Shown here: one piece after another, positions 1 through 4,771 of the stretch
Numbering within the stretch: the first letter of the stretch is position 1
How the letters are laid out: each line of letters opens with the position of its first letter
IMG/VR virus record: IMGVR_UViG_2778261502_000006
Origin: a virus
Lineage: Duplodnaviria; Heunggongvirae; Uroviricota; Caudoviricetes
Reading direction: 5' to 3' (one strand)
Length of the DNA stretch: 4,771 nucleotides
Notes under the pieces: model-generated
What the model was told of the DNA's origin: nothing
Databases searched by the model: none
What the model saw: the letters and a program-made list of their open reading frames with translations, nothing else
Position numbers and translations under genes: made by a program

Positions 1-315
1 TTATACACTTTGCTGTGGGATTTTCACGATTGAGGTACCATCAAATCGCCAGGTTAAATCAGCGTCAAAACCAGCAGGTAAAGCTTCAACTTCAGTCACT
101 GACATATCAACCGGGTACAGCATTGATACATCCTTTGCGCACGAACAAATAATACCGTCATCCCCATATACAATTTTCCAGGTATCTTCTCTGAATAACT
201 TTTGTGATTCGTACCAGTCATTGCCTTCATCATCACGAAGGTAAATGACTCCTGAAATGTATGTTTCTGGTGTGTAACGAGTCAGATTTTTTAACGTCAG
301 CATTTTGTTATCCAT
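1..315 (-). CDS. Tail-fibre assembly protein (Tfa; Mu U / P2 G family), N-terminal domain only, about 104 aa. Start ambiguous: ATG 313-315, TTG 316-318 or ATG 301-303.
   Basis: Minus-strand ORF ending TAA at 1-3. The segment DEGNDWYESQKLFREDTWKIVYGDDGIICSCAKDVSMLYPVDMSVTEVEALP matches the N-terminal signature I recall for Mu U / P2 G (EDGKNWYEE..PDT.K.VYD...I.....DVS..NP.....VEV). Its start overlaps the stop of an upstream tail-fibre-like frame (ATGGATAA), the usual stf-tfa coupling. The conserved C-terminal Tfa domain is absent. No clear SD. Confidence 0.6.
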   Translation of the reverse strand: MDNKMLTLKNLTRYTPETYISGVIYLRDDEGNDWYESQKLFREDTWKIVYGDDGIICSCAKDVSMLYPVDMSVTEVEALPAGFDADLTWRFDGTSIVKIPQQSV

Positions 316-544
316 CAATTGTTACCCAATTGCCATTCAGTCTCACCTGCATCGGCGCCACGCGTATTGCTGAAATTGTGATGTAGGTATCATTACTCAG
401 ATTGGTTAGCCCACACAGGAATGAACCACCAGGGGCGTCATAAGATTTTGACTCTCCACCACTACCACCTGGTGTTGCAATGGATGTGATAGCACCGCGC
501 CGGAACCCGCTAGGGTTACAGGTGGTTGTGGAACTGGTCGATAG
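308..544 (-). pseudogene. 3' remnant of a side tail-fibre (stf-like) gene: 78 sense codons with no start codon, ending TAA 308-310.
   Basis: Minus-strand frame is open from 544 to 311, bounded upstream by TGA (545-547). Translation is Gly/Ser/Thr-rich (...NPSGFRRGAITSIATPGGSGGESKSYDAPGGSF...NGNWVTIDG*) and ends 5 nt inside the tfa start, as tail-fibre genes do. The upstream body of the gene is missing. The tail-fibre call rests on position and composition only. Confidence 0.35.
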
Positions 545-632
545 TCATCCCTAAATCGGAAGCCATACCTAAGCGACCATGCTTGTGTGCCTTACACATC
601 AGGCGGATTGCTGTATTTATGCTGTCTACCAT
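516..632 (-). CDS. Small HTH-like protein, possibly a truncated cII-like regulator (38 aa from ATG 630-632; the longer 62-aa ORF from ATG 702-704 would overlap the cro 3' end).
   Basis: ATG at 630-632 is preceded by GAGGGA with an 8-nt spacer. It lies 31 bp downstream of the cro stop on the same strand, the lambda cII position. The product MVDSINTAIRLMCKAHKHGRLGMASDLGMTIDQFHNHL has a helix-turn-helix-like segment but is too short for a full cII, and its 3' end overlaps the tail-fibre remnant frame. Confidence 0.35.
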   Translation of the reverse strand: MVDSINTAIRLMCKAHKHGRLGMASDLGMTIDQFHNHL

Positions 633-663
633 GTTGATTTCCCTCTGGTAGTTAATAATCAAC

Positions 664-921
664 TTAAAGTTGACTATTGTTGTTAGCGGAAGGTATGCCG
701 TCATTTTTGTTCGGATAAATATCAGGTCGTAATTGATGGGGAGTTACTACCCATCCGCCCCATTGGCAGAGTTGAATAACTCTTTCAGAAGGTACTCGGT
801 TCTTTGCAATCCAGTTCGCAACAGATTGAACTGATTGGAATTCAAACCGCCTTGATACCTCTGAAATCGACCCGATCGCCTTCACAGCTTTAGCTGTTAC
901 ATTCTTGTGTTGAGATGACAT
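664..921 (-). CDS. cro: Cro-like DNA-binding repressor (Cro/YdaS-type HTH), 85 aa.
   Basis: ATG 919-921 is preceded by AGGAGA with a 5-nt spacer (reverse complement of 926-931); stop TAA 664-666. The segment FQSVQSVANWIAKNRVPSERVIQLCQWGGWVVTPHQLRPDIYP resembles the Cro/YdaS helix-turn-helix pattern (...S.W....RVP.ER...I...TGG.VT..ELRPD). It is divergent from the CI-like gene. The track ORF 664..978 adds an N-terminal extension with no RBS. Confidence 0.75.
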   Translation of the reverse strand: MSSQHKNVTAKAVKAIGSISEVSRRFEFQSVQSVANWIAKNRVPSERVIQLCQWGGWVVTPHQLRPDIYPNKNDGIPSANNNSQL

Positions 922-1026
922 GTGTTCTCCTATGACTAAGCCTGCATCAATACTACTTATGGTAGCAATTATTAGCAACTTAAAATAGAAATGACAACTA
1001 TGCCTTGTGCGCTTAATCTTCTACTT
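922..1026. promoter_or_regulatory. Divergent cro / cI promoter-operator region.
   Basis: Intergenic between divergent repressor genes. CTAC-N5-GTAG dyad CTACTTATGGTAG at 953-965 and related CTACTTATGGTGG at 1021-1033. A -10-like TAAAAT at 981-986 sits just upstream of ATG 991 on the plus strand. A -35-like TTGTCA lies on the minus strand (reverse complement of 992-997). Promoter assignments are by eye. Confidence 0.5.
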
Positions 1027-1710
1027 ATGGTGGAAAATGCTAAATACAAAGACTTTGCCGAAAGGCTAAACAGGTCTCTCCAAGAGCAATCTATTGGAGT
1101 TAAAGAATTGTCAGAGTTCAGTGGTGTCTCGTATGAGATGGCGCGGCGCTACACTCTTGGTACTGCAAAGCCGAGAGATGAGAAGATGATTCGAATTGCA
1201 GAAAGACTTGCCGTCTCACCGGCTTATCTTGATTATGGTGTGCCTGTTAATGGTGGCGACGCGCCAGCCAAAGGCACGGTCAGAATAGAGCAATTGGATG
1301 TTCATGCTTCAGCCGGTTCCGGATATATAAACCAACCATTCCCTACAATAGTGAGCTCAATAGAGATTCCAGAAGAGAGGATCTTCGAGTTGTTTGGTCG
1401 TAGAAGCCTTGATGGCATCGTCATGATAAATGTTGATGGCGATAGCATGATGCCCACGCTTTGCCCAAAGGACCTGCTTTTCATAGACAGCAAGGTTGAA
1501 CAATTCAGCGGCGACGGCGTTTATGTGTTCAATTTTGAAGACAGTACGTTCGTTAAACGTTTGCAGAAGGTAAAAGGGCGTCGACTGGCAGTTCTTTCAG
1601 ACAATGAACATTACCCGCCCTTCTTCATAGAGGAGCATGAAATGAATGAACTATACATATTCGGCAAGCTAATCAGATGCTTACCTCTAAAAATGATAGA
1701 GTTTGGCTAA
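991..1710 (+). CDS. cI: CI-like prophage repressor: N-terminal HTH plus C-terminal S24 (LexA-like) autopeptidase domain; 239 aa, or 227 aa if it starts at ATG 1027.
   Basis: Full-length ORF with stop TAA 1708-1710. HTH-like region (SIGVKELSEFSGVSYEMARRYTLG). S24 signature with nucleophile Ser in GDSM (VDGDSMMPT) and general-base Lys in FVKRL. Candidate Ala-Gly cleavage site in HASAGSG. No SD before ATG 991, so possibly leaderless like lambda cI. Confidence 0.9.
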   Translation: MTTMPCALNLLLMVENAKYKDFAERLNRSLQEQSIGVKELSEFSGVSYEMARRYTLGTAKPRDEKMIRIAERLAVSPAYLDYGVPVNGGDAPAKGTVRIEQLDVHASAGSGYINQPFPTIVSSIEIPEERIFELFGRRSLDGIVMINVDGDSMMPTLCPKDLLFIDSKVEQFSGDGVYVFNFEDSTFVKRLQKVKGRRLAVLSDNEHYPPFFIEEHEMNELYIFGKLIRCLPLKMIEFG

Positions 1711-1726
1711 TAATTAATTCATCAAG

Positions 1727-1750
1727 AAACCGGCGAAAGCCGGTTTTTTT
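1727..1750 (+). terminator. Rho-independent terminator downstream of cI.
   Basis: AAACCGGC-GAAA-GCCGGTTT stem with GNRA-type tetraloop followed by a run of 7 T. On the minus strand the same hairpin is followed by TTTCTT, so it may act in both directions. Confidence 0.75.
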
Positions 1751-1802
1751 ACGCCTCCAATTCCTCACCTCATAACACTACACTACTAAAAATTTCATTT
1801 TT

Positions 1803-1845
1803 CTACTTTTTGTTGTTGCAATTATCTACTTAAAGTAGCTATAGT
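1803..1845 (+). promoter_or_regulatory. Candidate sigma70 promoter with an embedded operator-like dyad.
   Basis: -35-like TTGCAA (1816-1821), 18-bp spacer, -10-like TATAGT (1840-1845). The spacer contains the perfect dyad CTACTT-A-AAGTAG (1826-1838), the same CTAC-N5-GTAG pattern as in the cI/cro intergenic region. A partial site CTACTTTTTGTTG lies at 1803-1815. Confidence 0.3.
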
Positions 1846-1941
1846 CATTGCATCGAAAGCGAACAGGCAGGACGCCCACGAAGTAGCCGCCGGTGGCGTA
1901 TGAATAACCGGATGATTCGCACAATGTCTGATGGAGGGATT

Positions 1942-2703: not shown

Positions 2704-2780
<77 letters not shown>

Positions 2781-2963: not shown

Positions 2964-3124
2964 GGAGAAACTAACCGGCGATTGCAGTCGCCCGTTTCAC
3001 TAAGTGCCTCTTCATGGGGCATTTACTGAAACGAAACCCAAACTTTTATTCGCCTTTTGGCGAGGGATTCGTGCAACCAAAATTCAGCGCCGTGCAGGGC
3101 GCATATAACACGGAGAAACTAACC

Positions 3125-3289
3125 ATGACGACCACACAGAACGTCACTGAGTTACAACCACGTATGACCAGAGAGCAACTGATCGATGCAGCTCGTAAAG
3201 CGGCCCCTCTTCTTCCGGTTGCTTACCGCGGGATCATGACAGAACTGGCTACGCCGACTGAAAGCCGATGTAGCATGGTGGAAATCTGA
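3125..3289 (+). CDS. Hypothetical small protein, 54 aa (track ORF 3014..3289 has an unsupported N-terminal extension).
   Basis: ATG 3125 is preceded by GGAG (3112-3115) with a 9-nt spacer. Product MTTTQNVTELQPRMTREQLIDAARKAAPLLPVAYRGIMTELATPTESRCSMVEI. Its 3' end overlaps a second open frame (from 3240). Confidence 0.4.
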   Translation: MTTTQNVTELQPRMTREQLIDAARKAAPLLPVAYRGIMTELATPTESRCSMVEI

Positions 3290-3311
3290 AGCTGAGTACT
3301 GTAAGGCGCGA

Positions 3312-3500
3312 GTGTTCGAACTGGCAAACGAAATTGCTGAACTAAGAAGCATGGTGATTCGTGTACCAATGCCGGTAATGGTGCCAGTAGAGATACTTCA
3401 TCAGCTAAATGGGAAGGGATCGAAAGAATATCCATTATGTCGCAATTGCAACGATGGAACCCGTCACGGGTGTTCATCGTGTGCTTACAGAATGAAGTAA
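3312..3500 (+). CDS. Hypothetical small Cys4 (zinc-ribbon-like) protein, 62 aa from GTG 3312 (49 aa from ATG 3351).
   Basis: The frame is open from 3240. GTG 3312 is preceded by AAGG (3303-3306). C-terminus CRNCNDGTRHGCSSCAYR gives C-x2-C-x7-C-x2-C. It is followed by hairpin AACCGG-GTGCAG-CCGGTT (3499-3516), just upstream of the xis SD. Confidence 0.4.
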   Translation: MFELANEIAELRSMVIRVPMPVMVPVEILHQLNGKGSKEYPLCRNCNDGTRHGCSSCAYRMK

Positions 3501-3533
3501 CCGGGTGCAGCCGGTTTAAGTGGAGAACTATGT

Positions 3534-3761
3534 ATGAGCGGACAAATCCAACGTTTTCTTACTCCTGATGACCTCTATCAATTAACTGGTTATCGTCGAC
3601 CTTCCCTACAGTGTAAGGCTCTGAGGGATAGTGGAGTTTTTTTTATCCCACGTAAGGACGGCAGACCTGGAACTACATGGGATCATGTATCAAACCCGGT
3701 TGGCCTTAAGTTGATAGTGAGCAATCCAGAGGAAGAAGAACCAAACTTTAAGGATATGTAA
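3534..3761 (+). CDS. xis: Excisionase (lambda Xis-like), 75 aa.
   Basis: ATG 3534 is preceded by GGAGA (3522-3526) with a 7-nt spacer. Stop TAA 3759-3761 overlaps the int ATG (TAATG), as in lambda xis-int. Similarity to lambda Xis is by remembered pattern (RRPRSL...PP.KDGR against RRPSLQ...IPRKDGRP). Confidence 0.7.
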   Translation: MSGQIQRFLTPDDLYQLTGYRRPSLQCKALRDSGVFFIPRKDGRPGTTWDHVSNPVGLKLIVSNPEEEEPNFKDM

Positions 3762-4771
3762 TGTCTAGAGCTCGCAAAAACCCTGATGATAACTGGATGC
3801 CTCCCCGCGTTCGCCGGGGAAAATCTGCTTATGAGTTTCGTACCACAGATGGTCGTACCATCAGGTTGTGCAATCCTGAGCTAACAAAATCGCAGGTATG
3901 GGCAGCTTACGAAAACTTCATAAACGATTTAAAGGTTGGTACGAACTTCAACGCACTTTGTGAAGAGTTCTTTAATTCCGGTGATTTCCACGAGTTAGCA
4001 ACTGAAACACGTAAAGACTACAGAAAATACGGTTCAAAGGTAAATGTTGTCTTCGGGAAAATGAAGCCGGATAACATCAAGCCAGAGCACATCAGAAAAT
4101 ACATGGATAAACGAGGTGTTAAGAGCAGAGTTCAGGCAAACCGCGAGAAAGCATTTATGTCCAGGGTGTTTCGGTGGGCATACGAACGAGGAAAGGTGAA
4201 GATGAATCCTTGCCAGGGCGTTAAGCAATTTAAAGAGCAGGCTCGAACCCGTTATATTAGCGATAGAGAATATGATGCACTTTATAGCGTAGCTTCTGTT
4301 CCAGTAAAAGTTGCAATGGAATTGGCATATCTATGTTGCGCCCGCCAGGGAGACATTCTTGACCTCAAAAAGAGTCAAATATTGAGCGAAGGAATTTTAA
4401 TTCAGCAGAGTAAAACCGCAGTTAGCCAGATCAAGGCCTGGACAAAACGTCTGGAGGATGCCGTTAATCTTGCTGACAGCATTCCTCTTAATAGCGGGAT
4501 GGTAAGTATTTTTGTCATCCACCAGCCATCAGGTCTGCGATACACACGCGATGCTTTTAATGCGCAATGGATGAAGACTAAAAAAATTGCTGCTGAAAAA
4601 TATCCAGACCTCGATTTCCAGTTCACTTTCCATGATCTAAAAGCCAAAGGAATTTCTGATCTTGAAGGTACGCTTAGTGAGAAGCAGGAAATTTCAGGTC
4701 ATAAAAACGCCTCGCAAACAGCGAGATATAACCGAAGAATTTCAGTTGTTCCGGTCGTCGGGGGGCAGTAA
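3761..4771 (+). CDS. int: Tyrosine recombinase / lambda-family phage integrase, 336 aa.
   Basis: Full ORF with stop TAA 4769-4771; AAGGA SD 6 nt upstream. Arm-binding-like basic N-terminus. Catalytic-domain blocks align with lambda Int: LAMELAYLCCARQGDIL (box I Arg), IQQSKTAV (Lys), FTFHDLKAKG (box II His), GHKNASQTARYNRR (His and nucleophile Tyr). Confidence 0.95.
   Translation: MSRARKNPDDNWMPPRVRRGKSAYEFRTTDGRTIRLCNPELTKSQVWAAYENFINDLKVGTNFNALCEEFFNSGDFHELATETRKDYRKYGSKVNVVFGKMKPDNIKPEHIRKYMDKRGVKSRVQANREKAFMSRVFRWAYERGKVKMNPCQGVKQFKEQARTRYISDREYDALYSVASVPVKVAMELAYLCCARQGDILDLKKSQILSEGILIQQSKTAVSQIKAWTKRLEDAVNLADSIPLNSGMVSIFVIHQPSGLRYTRDAFNAQWMKTKKIAAEKYPDLDFQFTFHDLKAKGISDLEGTLSEKQEISGHKNASQTARYNRRISVVPVVGGQ

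What the first reader, a model, noticed from the sequence alone, without database searches (positions are those of the whole stretch)
953..1033. CTAC-N5-GTAG operator-like sites in the cI/cro switch region
CTACTTATGGTAG (953-965) and CTACTTATGGTGG (1021-1033) share an 11-bp core and a dyad-symmetric CTAC/GTAG (GTGG) arrangement. One sits in the likely cro promoter region and the other spans the alternative cI start. They are candidate CI/Cro binding sites defining the immunity specificity. Caveat: an exact 11-mer repeat is within chance expectation for a 4.8-kb window, so the case rests on dyad symmetry, position and the third site at 1826-1838.
Basis: seen in the sequence. Interest (0 to 1): 0.5.

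Follow-up and report, generated by a model that had tools for sequence, protein, structure and literature searches.

The report
Operator sites of a prophage switch
These short palindromes are almost certainly the DNA sites where a dormant virus's repressor and its Cro partner bind to keep the virus silent: an ordinary lambda-style genetic switch, but with a recognition sequence I could not find described anywhere.

Summary
CTAC-N5-GTAG occurs five times in the window at up to one mismatch, against 0.9 expected. Four of those hits lie in the 0.9-kb cI/cro immunity region.

- 976-988, CAACTTAAAATAG
- 1803-1815, CTACTTTTTGTTG

Together the sites form two pairs with identical 23-bp spacing. One pair sits on the cro promoter (PR). 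The other sits on a PL-like promoter just after the cI terminator. A fifth site lies on the cI start codon.

In 90 related loci (CI 53-100% identical; Escherichia, Mixta, Pantoea, Rouxiella, Providencia phages, Phlomobacter) the sites keep the same positions. Their half-sites are invariant, their centres vary, and the flanking DNA has diverged. The CI recognition helix and the Cro-like gene are conserved alongside them.

The exact motif is absent from 100 kb of unrelated E. coli DNA and from phages of other immunity types.

Verdict: a new immunity specificity of the classical lambdoid CI/Cro/operator switch. It is well supported and not surprising. No binding data exist.

In passing, I found a 66-nt structured RNA with strong covariation at 1857-1922, immediately downstream of PL. 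It has no Rfam match and recurs at early promoters of many phages.

The parts
953..965 (.). Operator OR-a, CTACTTATGGTAG. It covers the predicted +1 of the cro promoter PR.
   Evidence: Exact match. Present at the same offset (-74 from the cI ATG) in 90 of 90 relatives. CTAC and GTAG are invariant in 76 distinct contexts while the centre varies.
976..988 (.). Operator OR-b, CAACTTAAAATAG, with one deviation in each half-site. It lies in the spacer of PR and 2 bp upstream of the PRM -35. Its centre is 23 bp from that of OR-a.
   Evidence: The sequence is nearly invariant (CAAC or CTAC ... ATAG) at offset -51, with no indels in any relative.
1021..1033 (.). Operator OR-c, CTACTTATGGTGG. It lies on the predicted PRM start and on the cI ATG at 1027. 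Its centre is 45 bp from that of OR-b.
   Evidence: Present in 74 of 90 relatives at up to 1 mismatch. The Pantoea clade carries the symmetric variant CCAC..GTGG. C1021, A1023 and C1024 stay fixed even where the ATG991-frame codons change Leu to Pro or Arg.
1803..1815 (.). Operator OL-b, CTACTTTTTGTTG. It abuts the -35 of the PL-like promoter.
   Evidence: It pairs with OL-a at exactly 23 bp in 86 of 90 relatives.
1826..1838 (.). Operator OL-a, CTACTTAAAGTAG, a perfect palindrome inside the 18-bp spacer of the PL-like promoter.
660..672 (.). Possible auxiliary site, CAACTTAAAGTTG, a perfect palindrome overlapping the cro stop codon.
   Evidence: It is kept, with a variable centre, only in relatives whose CI is at least 86% identical. 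One half overlaps the conserved Gln-Leu-stop codons, so the evidence is weak.
968..997 (-). PR (cro promoter): -35 TTGTCA (997-992), 18-bp spacer, -10 AATAAT (973-968). Predicted +1 is near 961.
   Evidence: Consensus scan, 10 of 12 matches. A997, which is T1 of the -35, is invariant although it is the first base of a variable codon in the ATG991 frame.
991..1019 (+). Candidate PRM (cI maintenance promoter): -35 ATGACA (991-996), 17-bp spacer, -10 TAATCT (1014-1019). Predicted +1 is at 1026/1027, which would give a leaderless cI mRNA.
   Evidence: T1014, A1015 and T1019 (positions 1, 2 and 6 of the hexamer) are invariant in 63 distinct sequences while 1016-1017 and the spacer vary. The spacer length is constant. 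No Shine-Dalgarno sequence precedes ATG 1027. Inference only.
1027..1710 (+). cI repressor, 227 aa from ATG 1027. RefSeq starts it at ATG 991, giving 239 aa.
   Evidence: Pfam HTH_3 and Peptidase_S24. PHROG 4, transcriptional repressor. Ala-Gly, the Ser of GDSM and a Lys 37 residues downstream are conserved.
664..921 (-). cro-like gene, 85 aa, with Shine-Dalgarno AGGAGAA.
   Evidence: Pfam YdaS_toxin 35.6 bits (cut-off 30). PDB 3BD1 'Cro protein' E=1e-5. PHROG 35. Co-conserved in the relatives.
1727..1750 (+). Intrinsic terminator of cI, AAACCGGCGAAAGCCGGTTTTTTT.
   Evidence: Read from the sequence. The stem changes in a compensatory way among relatives: GGC/GCC, GCC/GGC, AGC/GCT. The consensus scanner did not list it.
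1816..1845 (+). PL-like early-left promoter: TTGCAA, 18-bp spacer, TATAGT. Predicted +1 is near 1852.
   Evidence: The -35 reads TTGACA in the Providencia phages, and its position is conserved. It points into an operon that ends with xis-like (3534-3761) and int (3761-4771) genes.

Best explanation
The CTAC-N5-GTAG palindromes are the operators of a lambda-type immunity switch in a defective lambdoid prophage. Dimers of the CI repressor most likely recognise the two invariant 4-bp half-sites, and so does the small Cro-family protein encoded divergently. CI has an HTH_3 DNA-binding domain and a LexA/UmuD-like self-cleaving domain.

Right operator:
- OR-b (976-988) lies in the spacer of the cro promoter PR, and OR-a (953-965) lies on its start site.
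- A pair of CI dimers bound 23 bp apart would shut off cro and the replication and lytic genes beyond it.
- OR-b also ends 2 bp upstream of the -35 of the presumed cI maintenance promoter. That -35 overlaps the PR -35 on the other strand.
- Occupancy of OR-b should therefore both block PR and free or stimulate cI transcription.
- That transcript would begin at or next to ATG 1027, making it leaderless, as in lambda.
- OR-c (1021-1033) lies on that start. It would turn cI off when bound by excess CI or by Cro.

Left operator:
- OL-a (1826-1838) lies in the spacer of a PL-like promoter, and OL-b (1803-1815) abuts its -35.
- Together they would silence the early-left operon that ends in xis and int.

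RecA-stimulated self-cleavage of CI at its Ala-Gly bond would lift repression.

Shown here: the sites, their excess over chance, their positions relative to consensus promoters, their strict positional conservation, and their co-occurrence with one recognition helix. Inferred: which protein binds which site, cooperativity, activation of PRM, the leaderless start, and any OL-OR loop across the 850 bp that separate them.
For: Enrichment:
- 5 hits against 0.92 expected, with 0 of 200 shuffles reaching 5.
- No exact site in 100 kb of unrelated E. coli Nissle DNA, and none elsewhere in the Nissle prophage region that carries this cassette.
- In 345 kb from 90 related loci, every exact match lies at a predicted operator position.

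Phylogenetic footprint:
- OR-a is present in 90 of 90 loci, and the OL pair at 23 bp in 86 of 90.
- Half-sites are invariant in 73-76 distinct contexts, while the central 5 bp vary (TTAAA, TTATA, TTATG, TTTAA, CAAAA and others) and the flanks are diverged.
- There are no indels between -74 and the ATG.

Promoter context:
- An independent consensus scan finds PR (TTGTCA-N18-AATAAT) and PL (TTGCAA-N18-TATAGT), each with a site in its spacer.
- The PRM -10 shows the TAnnnT conservation signature on bases that fall at variable codon positions.

Proteins:
- CI carries HTH_3 plus S24, and Cro matches PDB 3BD1 Cro.
- Both are co-conserved with the sites.
- The recognition helix SYEMARRYTLGTAKPRD is conserved (YEMARRYT and AKPRD invariant; three conservative substitutions).

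Specificity:
- The Phlomobacter protein has the same N-terminal domain and a different C-terminal part, and it keeps the sites.
- The 4A7 and ST160 repressors (38% and 37% identical) have another helix and other palindromes, such as ATACGCAAGCGTAT.
- ST64B, SfV, HK022 and HK639 lack the motif at cI-cro.

Cassette boundaries: window 517-1920 is 99.6% identical to a prophage in 33 E. coli genomes, with different flanks. That block spans all the sites from 660 to 1838.
Against: - There is no binding, footprint, reporter or transcript-mapping evidence for this cassette in any source I could search.
- OR-b and OL-b deviate from the consensus half-sites.
- The near-invariance of OR-b could partly reflect the promoter elements it overlaps.
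- The right half of OR-c is inside the coding sequence (ATG GTR GAA). Its left half lies in the ATG991 reading frame, which is open in all 34 distinct variants. Part of its conservation could therefore be protein-coding, and the leaderless-start idea could be wrong.
- PR, PRM and PL are consensus matches. The number of promoter-like hits in the region equals the shuffle expectation.
- Nothing tells CI sites from Cro sites.
- The window's prophage is a deletion remnant, so the switch may no longer control anything beyond its own genes, xis and int.
Confidence: 0.85

Rival explanations
1. The repeats are a chance coincidence of an 11-mer in AT-rich intergenic DNA.
For: About 2.7 identical 11-mer pairs are expected in a window of this size.
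Against: The motif-level excess is beyond all 200 shuffles. The sites hold identical positions in 90 loci from at least six genera while the flanks diverge. The exact motif is absent from 100 kb of background DNA.
Confidence: 0.01
2. The conserved blocks are promoter elements, or binding sites for a host factor or another phage protein such as the YmfL/CII-like regulator. They are not CI/Cro operators.
For: Every site overlaps or abuts a predicted -35, -10 or +1. OR-b is embedded in a 20-bp invariant block that includes both -35 hexamers.
Against: The same dyad recurs in five different registers relative to promoters: spacer, +1, and upstream of the -35. Promoter elements do not do that. The conservation pattern is dyad-symmetric, with a free centre. 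The sites track the CI N-terminal domain, including through a C-terminal domain swap. Phages of other immunity types with similar promoters lack the motif.
Confidence: 0.05
3. Only one of the two regulators uses CTAC-N5-GTAG, for example the Cro-like protein alone. The other recognises a different or overlapping sequence.
For: Both proteins are co-conserved with the sites, so comparative data cannot separate them. In the shuffled phages that share the RNA element, the cassette always moves as a unit.
Against: In the characterised lambdoid switches I know of (lambda, 434, P22), CI and Cro share the same operators; this is from my own knowledge. The OL pair on PL, next to cI and far from cro, fits repressor control. 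The Phlomobacter locus keeps the CI N-terminal domain, the Cro-like gene and the sites together.
Confidence: 0.1
4. The palindromes act as RNA or DNA hairpins, for example as attenuators or processing sites.
For: They are inverted repeats.
Against: The stems are only 4 bp with 5-nt loops. Three of the five sites lie in promoter spacers or upstream of a -35 and so are not transcribed from those promoters. There is no compensatory change: the half-sites are invariant rather than covarying. The true structured RNA at 1857-1922 behaves in the opposite way.
Confidence: 0.01

Closest known systems
Phage lambda immunity region (CI, Cro, OR1-3/PR/PRM, OL1-3/PL)
   Same: - Divergent cI and cro genes with three dyad sites between them.
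- Adjacent sites 23 bp apart centre to centre (lambda: 24 and 23 bp).
- A site in the PR spacer, and a site next to the PRM -35.
- A second operator cluster on PL beyond the end of the cI transcription unit.
- A CI with an HTH N-terminal domain and an S24 self-cleaving C-terminal domain.
- Probably a leaderless cI mRNA.
- An early-left operon that ends in xis-int.
   Different: - The operator is a 13-bp CTAC-N5-GTAG core, not the 17-bp lambda consensus.
- The PR and PRM -35 hexamers overlap (992-997 and 991-996), so one site serves as lambda OR1 does for PR and as OR2 does for PRM.
- The third site is 45 bp away, on the PRM start and the cI ATG, rather than in the PRM spacer.
- Only two clear OL sites are present.
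- OL and OR are 0.85 kb apart, not 2.4 kb.
- Cro belongs to the YdaS / Xfaso-1 Cro sequence family.
- CI finds no lambda CI chain in PDB by sequence.
Phage 434 and P22 repressor/Cro operators (for example 434 ACAA-N6-TTGT)
   Same: Conserved 4-bp outer half-sites are read by an HTH_3-type helix. The A/T-rich centre varies and differs between sites. In 434 that centre tunes affinity without direct contact (from my own knowledge). Several sites of graded quality are present.
   Different: The spacer is N5, not N6, and the half-site sequence differs. No detectable close sequence relationship exists: the nearest phage repressors outside this family are 37-38% identical and have another helix.
e14 and Rac cryptic-prophage immunity regions of E. 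coli K-12 (CohE/YmfK-CroE-YmfL; RacR-YdaS-YdaT)
   Same: The gene families and their order match: an S24 or XRE repressor, a divergent YdaS-family Cro-like gene, then a YmfL/YdaT-type regulator. Like e14, the window is a deletion remnant that keeps immunity, xis/int and a tail-fibre assembly fragment.
   Different: The operators of those elements are not the CTAC motif as far as I know (from my own knowledge; not tested here). This CI has a different recognition helix.
HK022 putL antiterminator RNA (relevant only to the element noticed at 1857-1922)
   Same: About 65-70 nt, structured, starting within about 10 nt of the PL start site, and cis-encoded ahead of diverse early-left genes.
   Different: There is no sequence or covariance-model similarity to HK022 putL or HK639 putL. 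Only one copy occurs per phage, with no putR counterpart. Its function is untested.

Membership tests
Lambda-type CI repressor (HTH N-terminal domain plus LexA-like self-cleaving C-terminal domain) | N-terminal helix-turn-helix DNA-binding domain | tested here: met
   Pfam HTH_3 23.6 bits (cut-off 23), residues 38-80 of the 239-aa form. PHROG 4, transcriptional repressor, E=3.9e-43.
Lambda-type CI repressor (HTH N-terminal domain plus LexA-like self-cleaving C-terminal domain) | S24 peptidase domain with a Ser-Lys dyad and an Ala-Gly cleavage site | tested here: met
   Peptidase_S24 62.6 bits. The profile matches UmuD and UmuD' chains. A96-G97, S140 (in GDSM) and K177 are conserved in the alignment, and Ser-to-Lys is 37 residues, as in LexA.
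Lambda-type CI repressor (HTH N-terminal domain plus LexA-like self-cleaving C-terminal domain) | RecA-stimulated autocleavage and SOS inducibility | not testable with these tools
   This needs a cleavage assay or mitomycin C induction.
Lambdoid operator/promoter switch (OR with divergent PR/PRM, plus OL/PL) | Multiple dyad-symmetric sites between divergent repressor and cro genes, overlapping their promoters | tested here: met
   Three sites lie at 953, 976 and 1021. PR was found by the consensus scan with a site in its spacer. PRM was inferred from conservation.
Lambdoid operator/promoter switch (OR with divergent PR/PRM, plus OL/PL) | A second operator cluster on the early-left promoter | tested here: met
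   Sites at 1803 and 1826 lie on TTGCAA-N18-TATAGT, and the pair is conserved in 86 of 90 relatives.
Lambdoid operator/promoter switch (OR with divergent PR/PRM, plus OL/PL) | Sites are bound by CI and Cro, and binding represses PR and PL | not testable with these tools
   This needs EMSA, footprinting or reporter fusions.
Lambdoid operator/promoter switch (OR with divergent PR/PRM, plus OL/PL) | Operator sequence co-varies with the repressor's recognition helix (immunity specificity) | tested here: met
   The same helix goes with the same half-sites in 90 loci, including one with a swapped C-terminal domain. A different helix goes with different palindromes in 4A7 and ST160, and the motif is absent from ST64B, SfV, HK022 and HK639. 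No intermediate helix variants were sampled.
Cro family | Small DNA-binding protein encoded divergently from cI, with sequence similarity to known Cro proteins | tested here: met
   85 aa. PDB 3BD1 'Cro protein' E=1e-5 over residues 11-80. Pfam YdaS_toxin 35.6 bits against a cut-off of 30. PHROG 35.
HK022-type put antiterminator RNA (for the element at 1857-1922) | Sequence and structure similarity to putL/putR | tested here: not met
   Covariance model R1 finds nothing in the HK022 or HK639 regions that hold putL. BLAST finds nothing.

The most novel reading that the evidence does not exclude
The switch may be a compacted variant of the lambda design. The PR and PRM -35 hexamers occupy the same 7 bp on opposite strands. 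A single repressor dimer at OR-b could then occlude PR and, at the same time, unmask or activate a leaderless cI promoter. A third site on the cI start codon would be closed by a CI-mediated loop to the OL pair only 0.85 kb away. In addition, the always-open 12-codon frame from ATG 991 could yield a second, longer CI isoform from read-through (establishment) transcripts. Its variable N-terminal arm might touch the variable operator centres.
Probability: 0.25. Interest if true: 0.45.

Novelty: new member of a known kind. Interest (0 to 1): 0.3.

Why it matters
- **An immunity group.** The result defines one group (one repressor helix, one operator half-site) shared by prophages of E. coli and of Mixta, Pantoea, Rouxiella and Providencia. 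The E. coli hosts include the probiotic and engineered-therapeutic chassis Nissle 1917. This allows superinfection immunity and prophage cross-talk to be predicted from sequence.
- **An annotation point.** It bears on the disputed cI start codon.
- **A synthetic-biology part.** It offers a compact repressor/operator pair with no motif match in the host DNA sampled here.
- **Not conceptually new.** It is the lambda paradigm with a different recognition sequence and a tighter promoter layout.
- **A side observation.** The structured RNA at the head of early operons may deserve more attention than the operators themselves.

Tried and rejected
1. A fourth OR site between OR-b and OR-c (998-1010, CTATGCCTTGTGC). 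It has 3 mismatches and is not conserved.
2. An alternative cI promoter using TAAAAT (981-986) inside OR-b. Its first T is replaced by A, G or C in relatives, and it lacks a -35.
3. A third OL site upstream of OL-b. Only a CTAC half-site is present (window 1778 and 1783), at variable distance (20-29 bp) in relatives. Left as uncertain.
4. The site at 2446-2458. It lies outside the conserved cassette and inside an ORF, and fits the chance expectation.
5. Literature. No paper in the library contains the operator sequences. The 'phage repressor pr' of E. coli Nissle studied by Bury et al. 2018 (PMC5987069) is a different gene: none of its four primers occurs in the 50-kb prophage region.
6. PDB. 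No chain matches CI by phmmer. The profile finds only UmuD and one HTH protein.
7. For the RNA element:
   - No Rfam family matches at E up to 1 on the whole window, or up to 10 on the element alone.
   - It is not HK022 or HK639 put.
   - It is not HK639's 'M3-like RNA'.
   - It is not one of the EHEC prophage anti-sRNAs, which lie at PR' (PMC4104026).
   - The single-sequence fold is no more stable than shuffles (z = +1.24), so only the comparative data reveal the structure.
   - King et al. 2011 (J Bacteriol, put-like RNAs) could not be read.
8. I did not run the large protein-database searches or structure prediction. They would not have changed the verdict.
Full report
**What the window is**

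The window holds the immunity region and early-left arm of a lambdoid prophage.
- A CI-type repressor lies at 1027 (or 991) to 1710 on the + strand. It carries Pfam HTH_3 and Peptidase_S24.
- An 85-aa Cro-like gene lies at 921-664 on the - strand. It matches Pfam YdaS_toxin and PDB 3BD1 'Cro protein' at E=1e-5.
- Downstream of cI come a terminator, a promoter, small ORFs, a tRNA-Arg(UCU) at 2704-2780, an excisionase-like gene (3534-3761) and an integrase (3761-4771).

Window 517-1920 is 99.6% identical to a prophage present in 33 complete E. coli genomes, including Nissle 1917. There it sits in a full-length lambdoid prophage with different flanking genes. This block behaves as an exchangeable immunity cassette and contains every site discussed below. 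In the window itself, a tail-fibre-assembly fragment (1-318, - strand) abuts a truncated ymfL-like gene at the homology break at 517. The host element is therefore a deletion remnant.

**Checking the observation**

An 11-mer repeat alone is within chance, since about 2.7 pairs are expected. The dyad CTAC-N5-GTAG at up to one mismatch is not: it occurs 5 times against 0.92 expected, and none of 200 shuffles reaches 5.

Relaxing the motif revealed two further sites, each exactly 23 bp from a perfect one:
- 976-988, CAACTTAAAATAG, next to 953-965
- 1803-1815, CTACTTTTTGTTG, next to 1826-1838

The exact motif is absent from 100 kb of unrelated E. coli Nissle chromosome. In the 50-kb stretch that holds the Nissle prophage, only the two operator sites match it exactly. 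At up to one mismatch the background is 0.16 per kb, against 4.4 per kb in the immunity region.

**Anatomy**

A consensus scan run without reference to the motif found two promoters.
- PR is on the - strand: TTGTCA (997-992), N18, AATAAT (973-968). The site at 976-988 lies in its spacer, and 953-965 lies over the predicted start.
- A PL-like promoter is on the + strand: TTGCAA (1816-1821), N18, TATAGT (1840-1845). The site at 1826-1838 lies in its spacer, and 1803-1815 abuts its -35.

Read along their own strands, PR and PL share one design: -35, then 3-4 nt, a 13-bp operator, one C, and the -10.

The third right-hand site, 1021-1033, covers ATG 1027. Upstream of it, ATGACA (991-996) and TAATCT (1014-1019) are 17 bp apart and form a candidate maintenance promoter. 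Its transcript would begin at 1026/1027. That would make it leaderless, as the lambda PRM transcript is.

**Comparative test**

I collected 90 loci that encode CI relatives 53-100% identical to the window's protein:
- two Providencia phages
- species-representative genomes of Mixta, Pantoea, Rouxiella and Candidatus Phlomobacter, plus one metagenome-assembled genome (MAG)
- 80 IMG/VR contigs, out of 362 relatives found

Results:
- The sites sit at identical offsets from the cI ATG (-74, -51, -6), with no indel between them.
- A pair 23 bp apart follows the cI terminator in 86 of 90 loci.
- Across 345 kb, every exact CTAC-N5-GTAG lies at one of these predicted operator positions.
- In 73-76 distinct sequence contexts the half-sites are invariant. 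The five central bases vary, and the cro leader, the PRM spacer and the region upstream of OL have diverged.

Two of the sites have conserved deviations from the consensus:
- OR-b is kept as a deviant site (CAAC...ATAG).
- OR-c appears in a Pantoea clade as the symmetric variant CCAC...GTGG.

Invariant outer half-sites around a free centre, together with conserved weak sites, are the pattern I would expect of a dimeric helix-turn-helix operator set (from my own knowledge of 434 and lambda).

**Link to the proteins**

The CI recognition helix region (SYEMARRYTLGTAKPRD) is conserved in all relatives aligned, with only three conservative substitutions, and the Cro-like protein is conserved with it. 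The Phlomobacter protein keeps this N-terminal domain but has an unrelated C-terminal part, and it still has the sites. The sites therefore follow the DNA-binding domain.

Conversely, the nearest phage repressors outside the family (4A7 and ST160, 38% and 37% identical) have a different helix (GVAQPTIWRLTSG). They carry different palindromes, such as ATACGCAAGCGTAT, in the same place. ST64B, SfV, HK022 and HK639 have no CTAC-N5-GTAG at their cI-cro regions.

**Promoter details and the cI start**

T1014, A1015 and T1019 are positions 1, 2 and 6 of the candidate PRM -10. They are invariant in 63 distinct sequences, while 1016-1017 and the 17-bp spacer vary. A997, which is T1 of the PR -35, is also invariant.

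In the ATG-991 reading frame these fixed bases fall in codons whose amino acids change freely: Leu, Asp, Ser, Asn, Phe, His, Cys and Ala at one codon, and Thr, Ile, Lys, Arg, Asn and Met at another. The constraint is therefore on the DNA, not on a protein. This supports the promoter assignment and the 1027 start.

Against that, the frame from ATG 991 is open in all 34 distinct variants despite several out-of-frame stops, and RefSeq annotates the 239-aa form. I leave the start ambiguous. A longer isoform made from read-through transcripts is possible.

**Mechanism proposed**

CI dimers would fill OR-a and OR-b, and OL-a and OL-b, as cooperative pairs. That would silence cro and the early-left operon. 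OR-b ends 2 bp from the PRM -35, and that hexamer overlaps the PR -35. Occupancy of OR-b should therefore favour cI transcription by contact with the polymerase, by relieving competition between the promoters, or both. OR-c would shut cI off at high CI or when Cro accumulates. CI has the Ala-Gly site and the Ser/Lys dyad, so SOS-induced self-cleavage is the expected inducer.

Only the sequence-level facts are shown. Binding, cooperativity, activation and looping are inferences by analogy with lambda.

**Novelty**

I found no description of these sequences in the searchable literature. I found no characterised phage with this repressor: only three phage records reach 60% identity or more. The E. 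coli Nissle 'pr' repressor studied in PMC5987069 is a different gene.

This is therefore a new immunity specificity of a very well known kind of switch. Its layout is somewhat more compact than lambda's: the -35 hexamers overlap, the third site lies on the cI start 45 bp away, and OL and OR are 0.85 kb apart.

**Seen in passing: a structured RNA at 1857-1922**

This 66-nt element starts about 6 nt after the predicted PL start.

Distribution:
- It recurs after cI and its terminator in ST64B and SfV, which have other immunity types. BLAST also finds it in SfII, SfIV, phiNP, ZF40, YeP1-3, mEp460 and mEp237, among others.
- It recurs as a single copy in 77 of 100 IMG/VR loci recovered with a 14-mer.
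- It also heads the pre-early A1/A2 operon of a T5-like Providencia phage, about 6 nt after a TTGCTT-N16-TG-TATACT promoter.

Structure:
- Two helices covary strongly, and 10 of 14 pairs show compensatory changes.
- 89.7% of cells are paired, against 69% in shuffles and about 40% when the partner columns are slid.
- The covariation score is 0.51, against 0.14 in shuffles.
- The joining strands are invariant: AGGCAGGACGCCCACGAAGUAGCCG, GGCAUAUGAA and GAUGA.

Context:
- The gene upstream on the same strand is often an S24 repressor (62 of 99 instances).
- The first downstream ORF falls into 43 unrelated clusters, so there is no obvious protein partner.
- It has no Rfam match and is not HK022 or HK639 put.

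My best guess is a cis-acting leader RNA that acts on the host transcription machinery, for example in processive antitermination or anti-pausing, as putL does. This is untested.

The E. coli Nissle/window homology ends exactly at the 3' edge of the element, at 1920.

Noticed in passing
window 1857-1922 (+); also L094 1500-1565, L095 1496-1561, L011 38589-38654, L220 2513-2580, and L096-L215: A 66-nt structured RNA element starts about 6 nt downstream of the predicted PL start. Two helices covary strongly: 10 of 14 pairs carry compensatory changes, and the covariation score is 0.51 against 0.14 in shuffles. The joining strands are invariant. It occurs as one copy per phage at the head of the early-left operon in many temperate enterobacterial phages of different immunity types (ST64B, SfV, SfII, phiNP, ZF40, mEp460 and others). 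It also heads the pre-early A1/A2 operon of T5-like Providencia phages. It has no Rfam match and is not HK022 or HK639 put. The first downstream genes are unrelated to one another. It is a candidate cis-acting leader RNA, possibly an antiterminator.
   Followed up: partly
window 991-1026 (+): The 12-codon frame from ATG 991 to ATG 1027 is open in all 34 distinct variants among the relatives, despite several out-of-frame stops. Its amino acids are not conserved, and the invariant bases fit promoter elements. A longer CI isoform remains possible, so the true start codon is unresolved. RefSeq uses 991.
   Followed up: partly
window 1-318 (-) and 516-632 (-); breakpoint at 517: A tail-fibre-assembly gene fragment lies directly next to a truncated ymfL-like gene. 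In the E. coli Nissle prophage the replication, lysis and structural genes would lie between them. The window's element is therefore a deletion remnant, resembling e14, that has kept an intact immunity cassette, xis and int.
   Followed up: partly
window 660-672: The perfect palindrome CAACTTAAAGTTG overlaps the cro stop codon. Its half-sites are kept and its centre varies in relatives whose CI is at least 86% identical, and it is absent in more distant relatives. It may be a sixth, weak operator, or it may be a by-product of the conserved Gln-Leu-stop codons.
   Followed up: partly
L010 2501-2914 (Candidatus Phlomobacter fragariae): A 137-aa repressor has the same N-terminal DNA-binding domain and the same operators, but an unrelated short C-terminal part with no S24 domain. 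This is a natural domain swap. It implies a version of this immunity type that cannot be induced through the SOS response.
   Followed up: no
window 2704-2780 (+): A tRNA-Arg (anticodon UCU) gene lies inside the early-left operon, between the immunity region and xis/int. It is on the same strand as the operon, so it looks phage-borne rather than an attachment-site tRNA.
   Followed up: no
window 1920/1921 and 3251/3252: These are mosaic junctions. [quoted passage not shown] A second block (3252-4771: DUF4224 excisionase-like gene plus integrase) matches other E. coli genomes at 94-97% identity. ORFs 3014-3289 and 3312-3500 hit only partial PHROG profiles, so the 3251/3252 junction may have truncated a gene.
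   Followed up: no
window 1778-1795: Two CTAC half-sites lie 20-25 bp upstream of OL-b (CTACACTACTAAAAATTT), with no right half. Relatives also carry a lone CTAC at a variable distance (20-29 bp). This may be a degenerate third OL site.
   Followed up: partly
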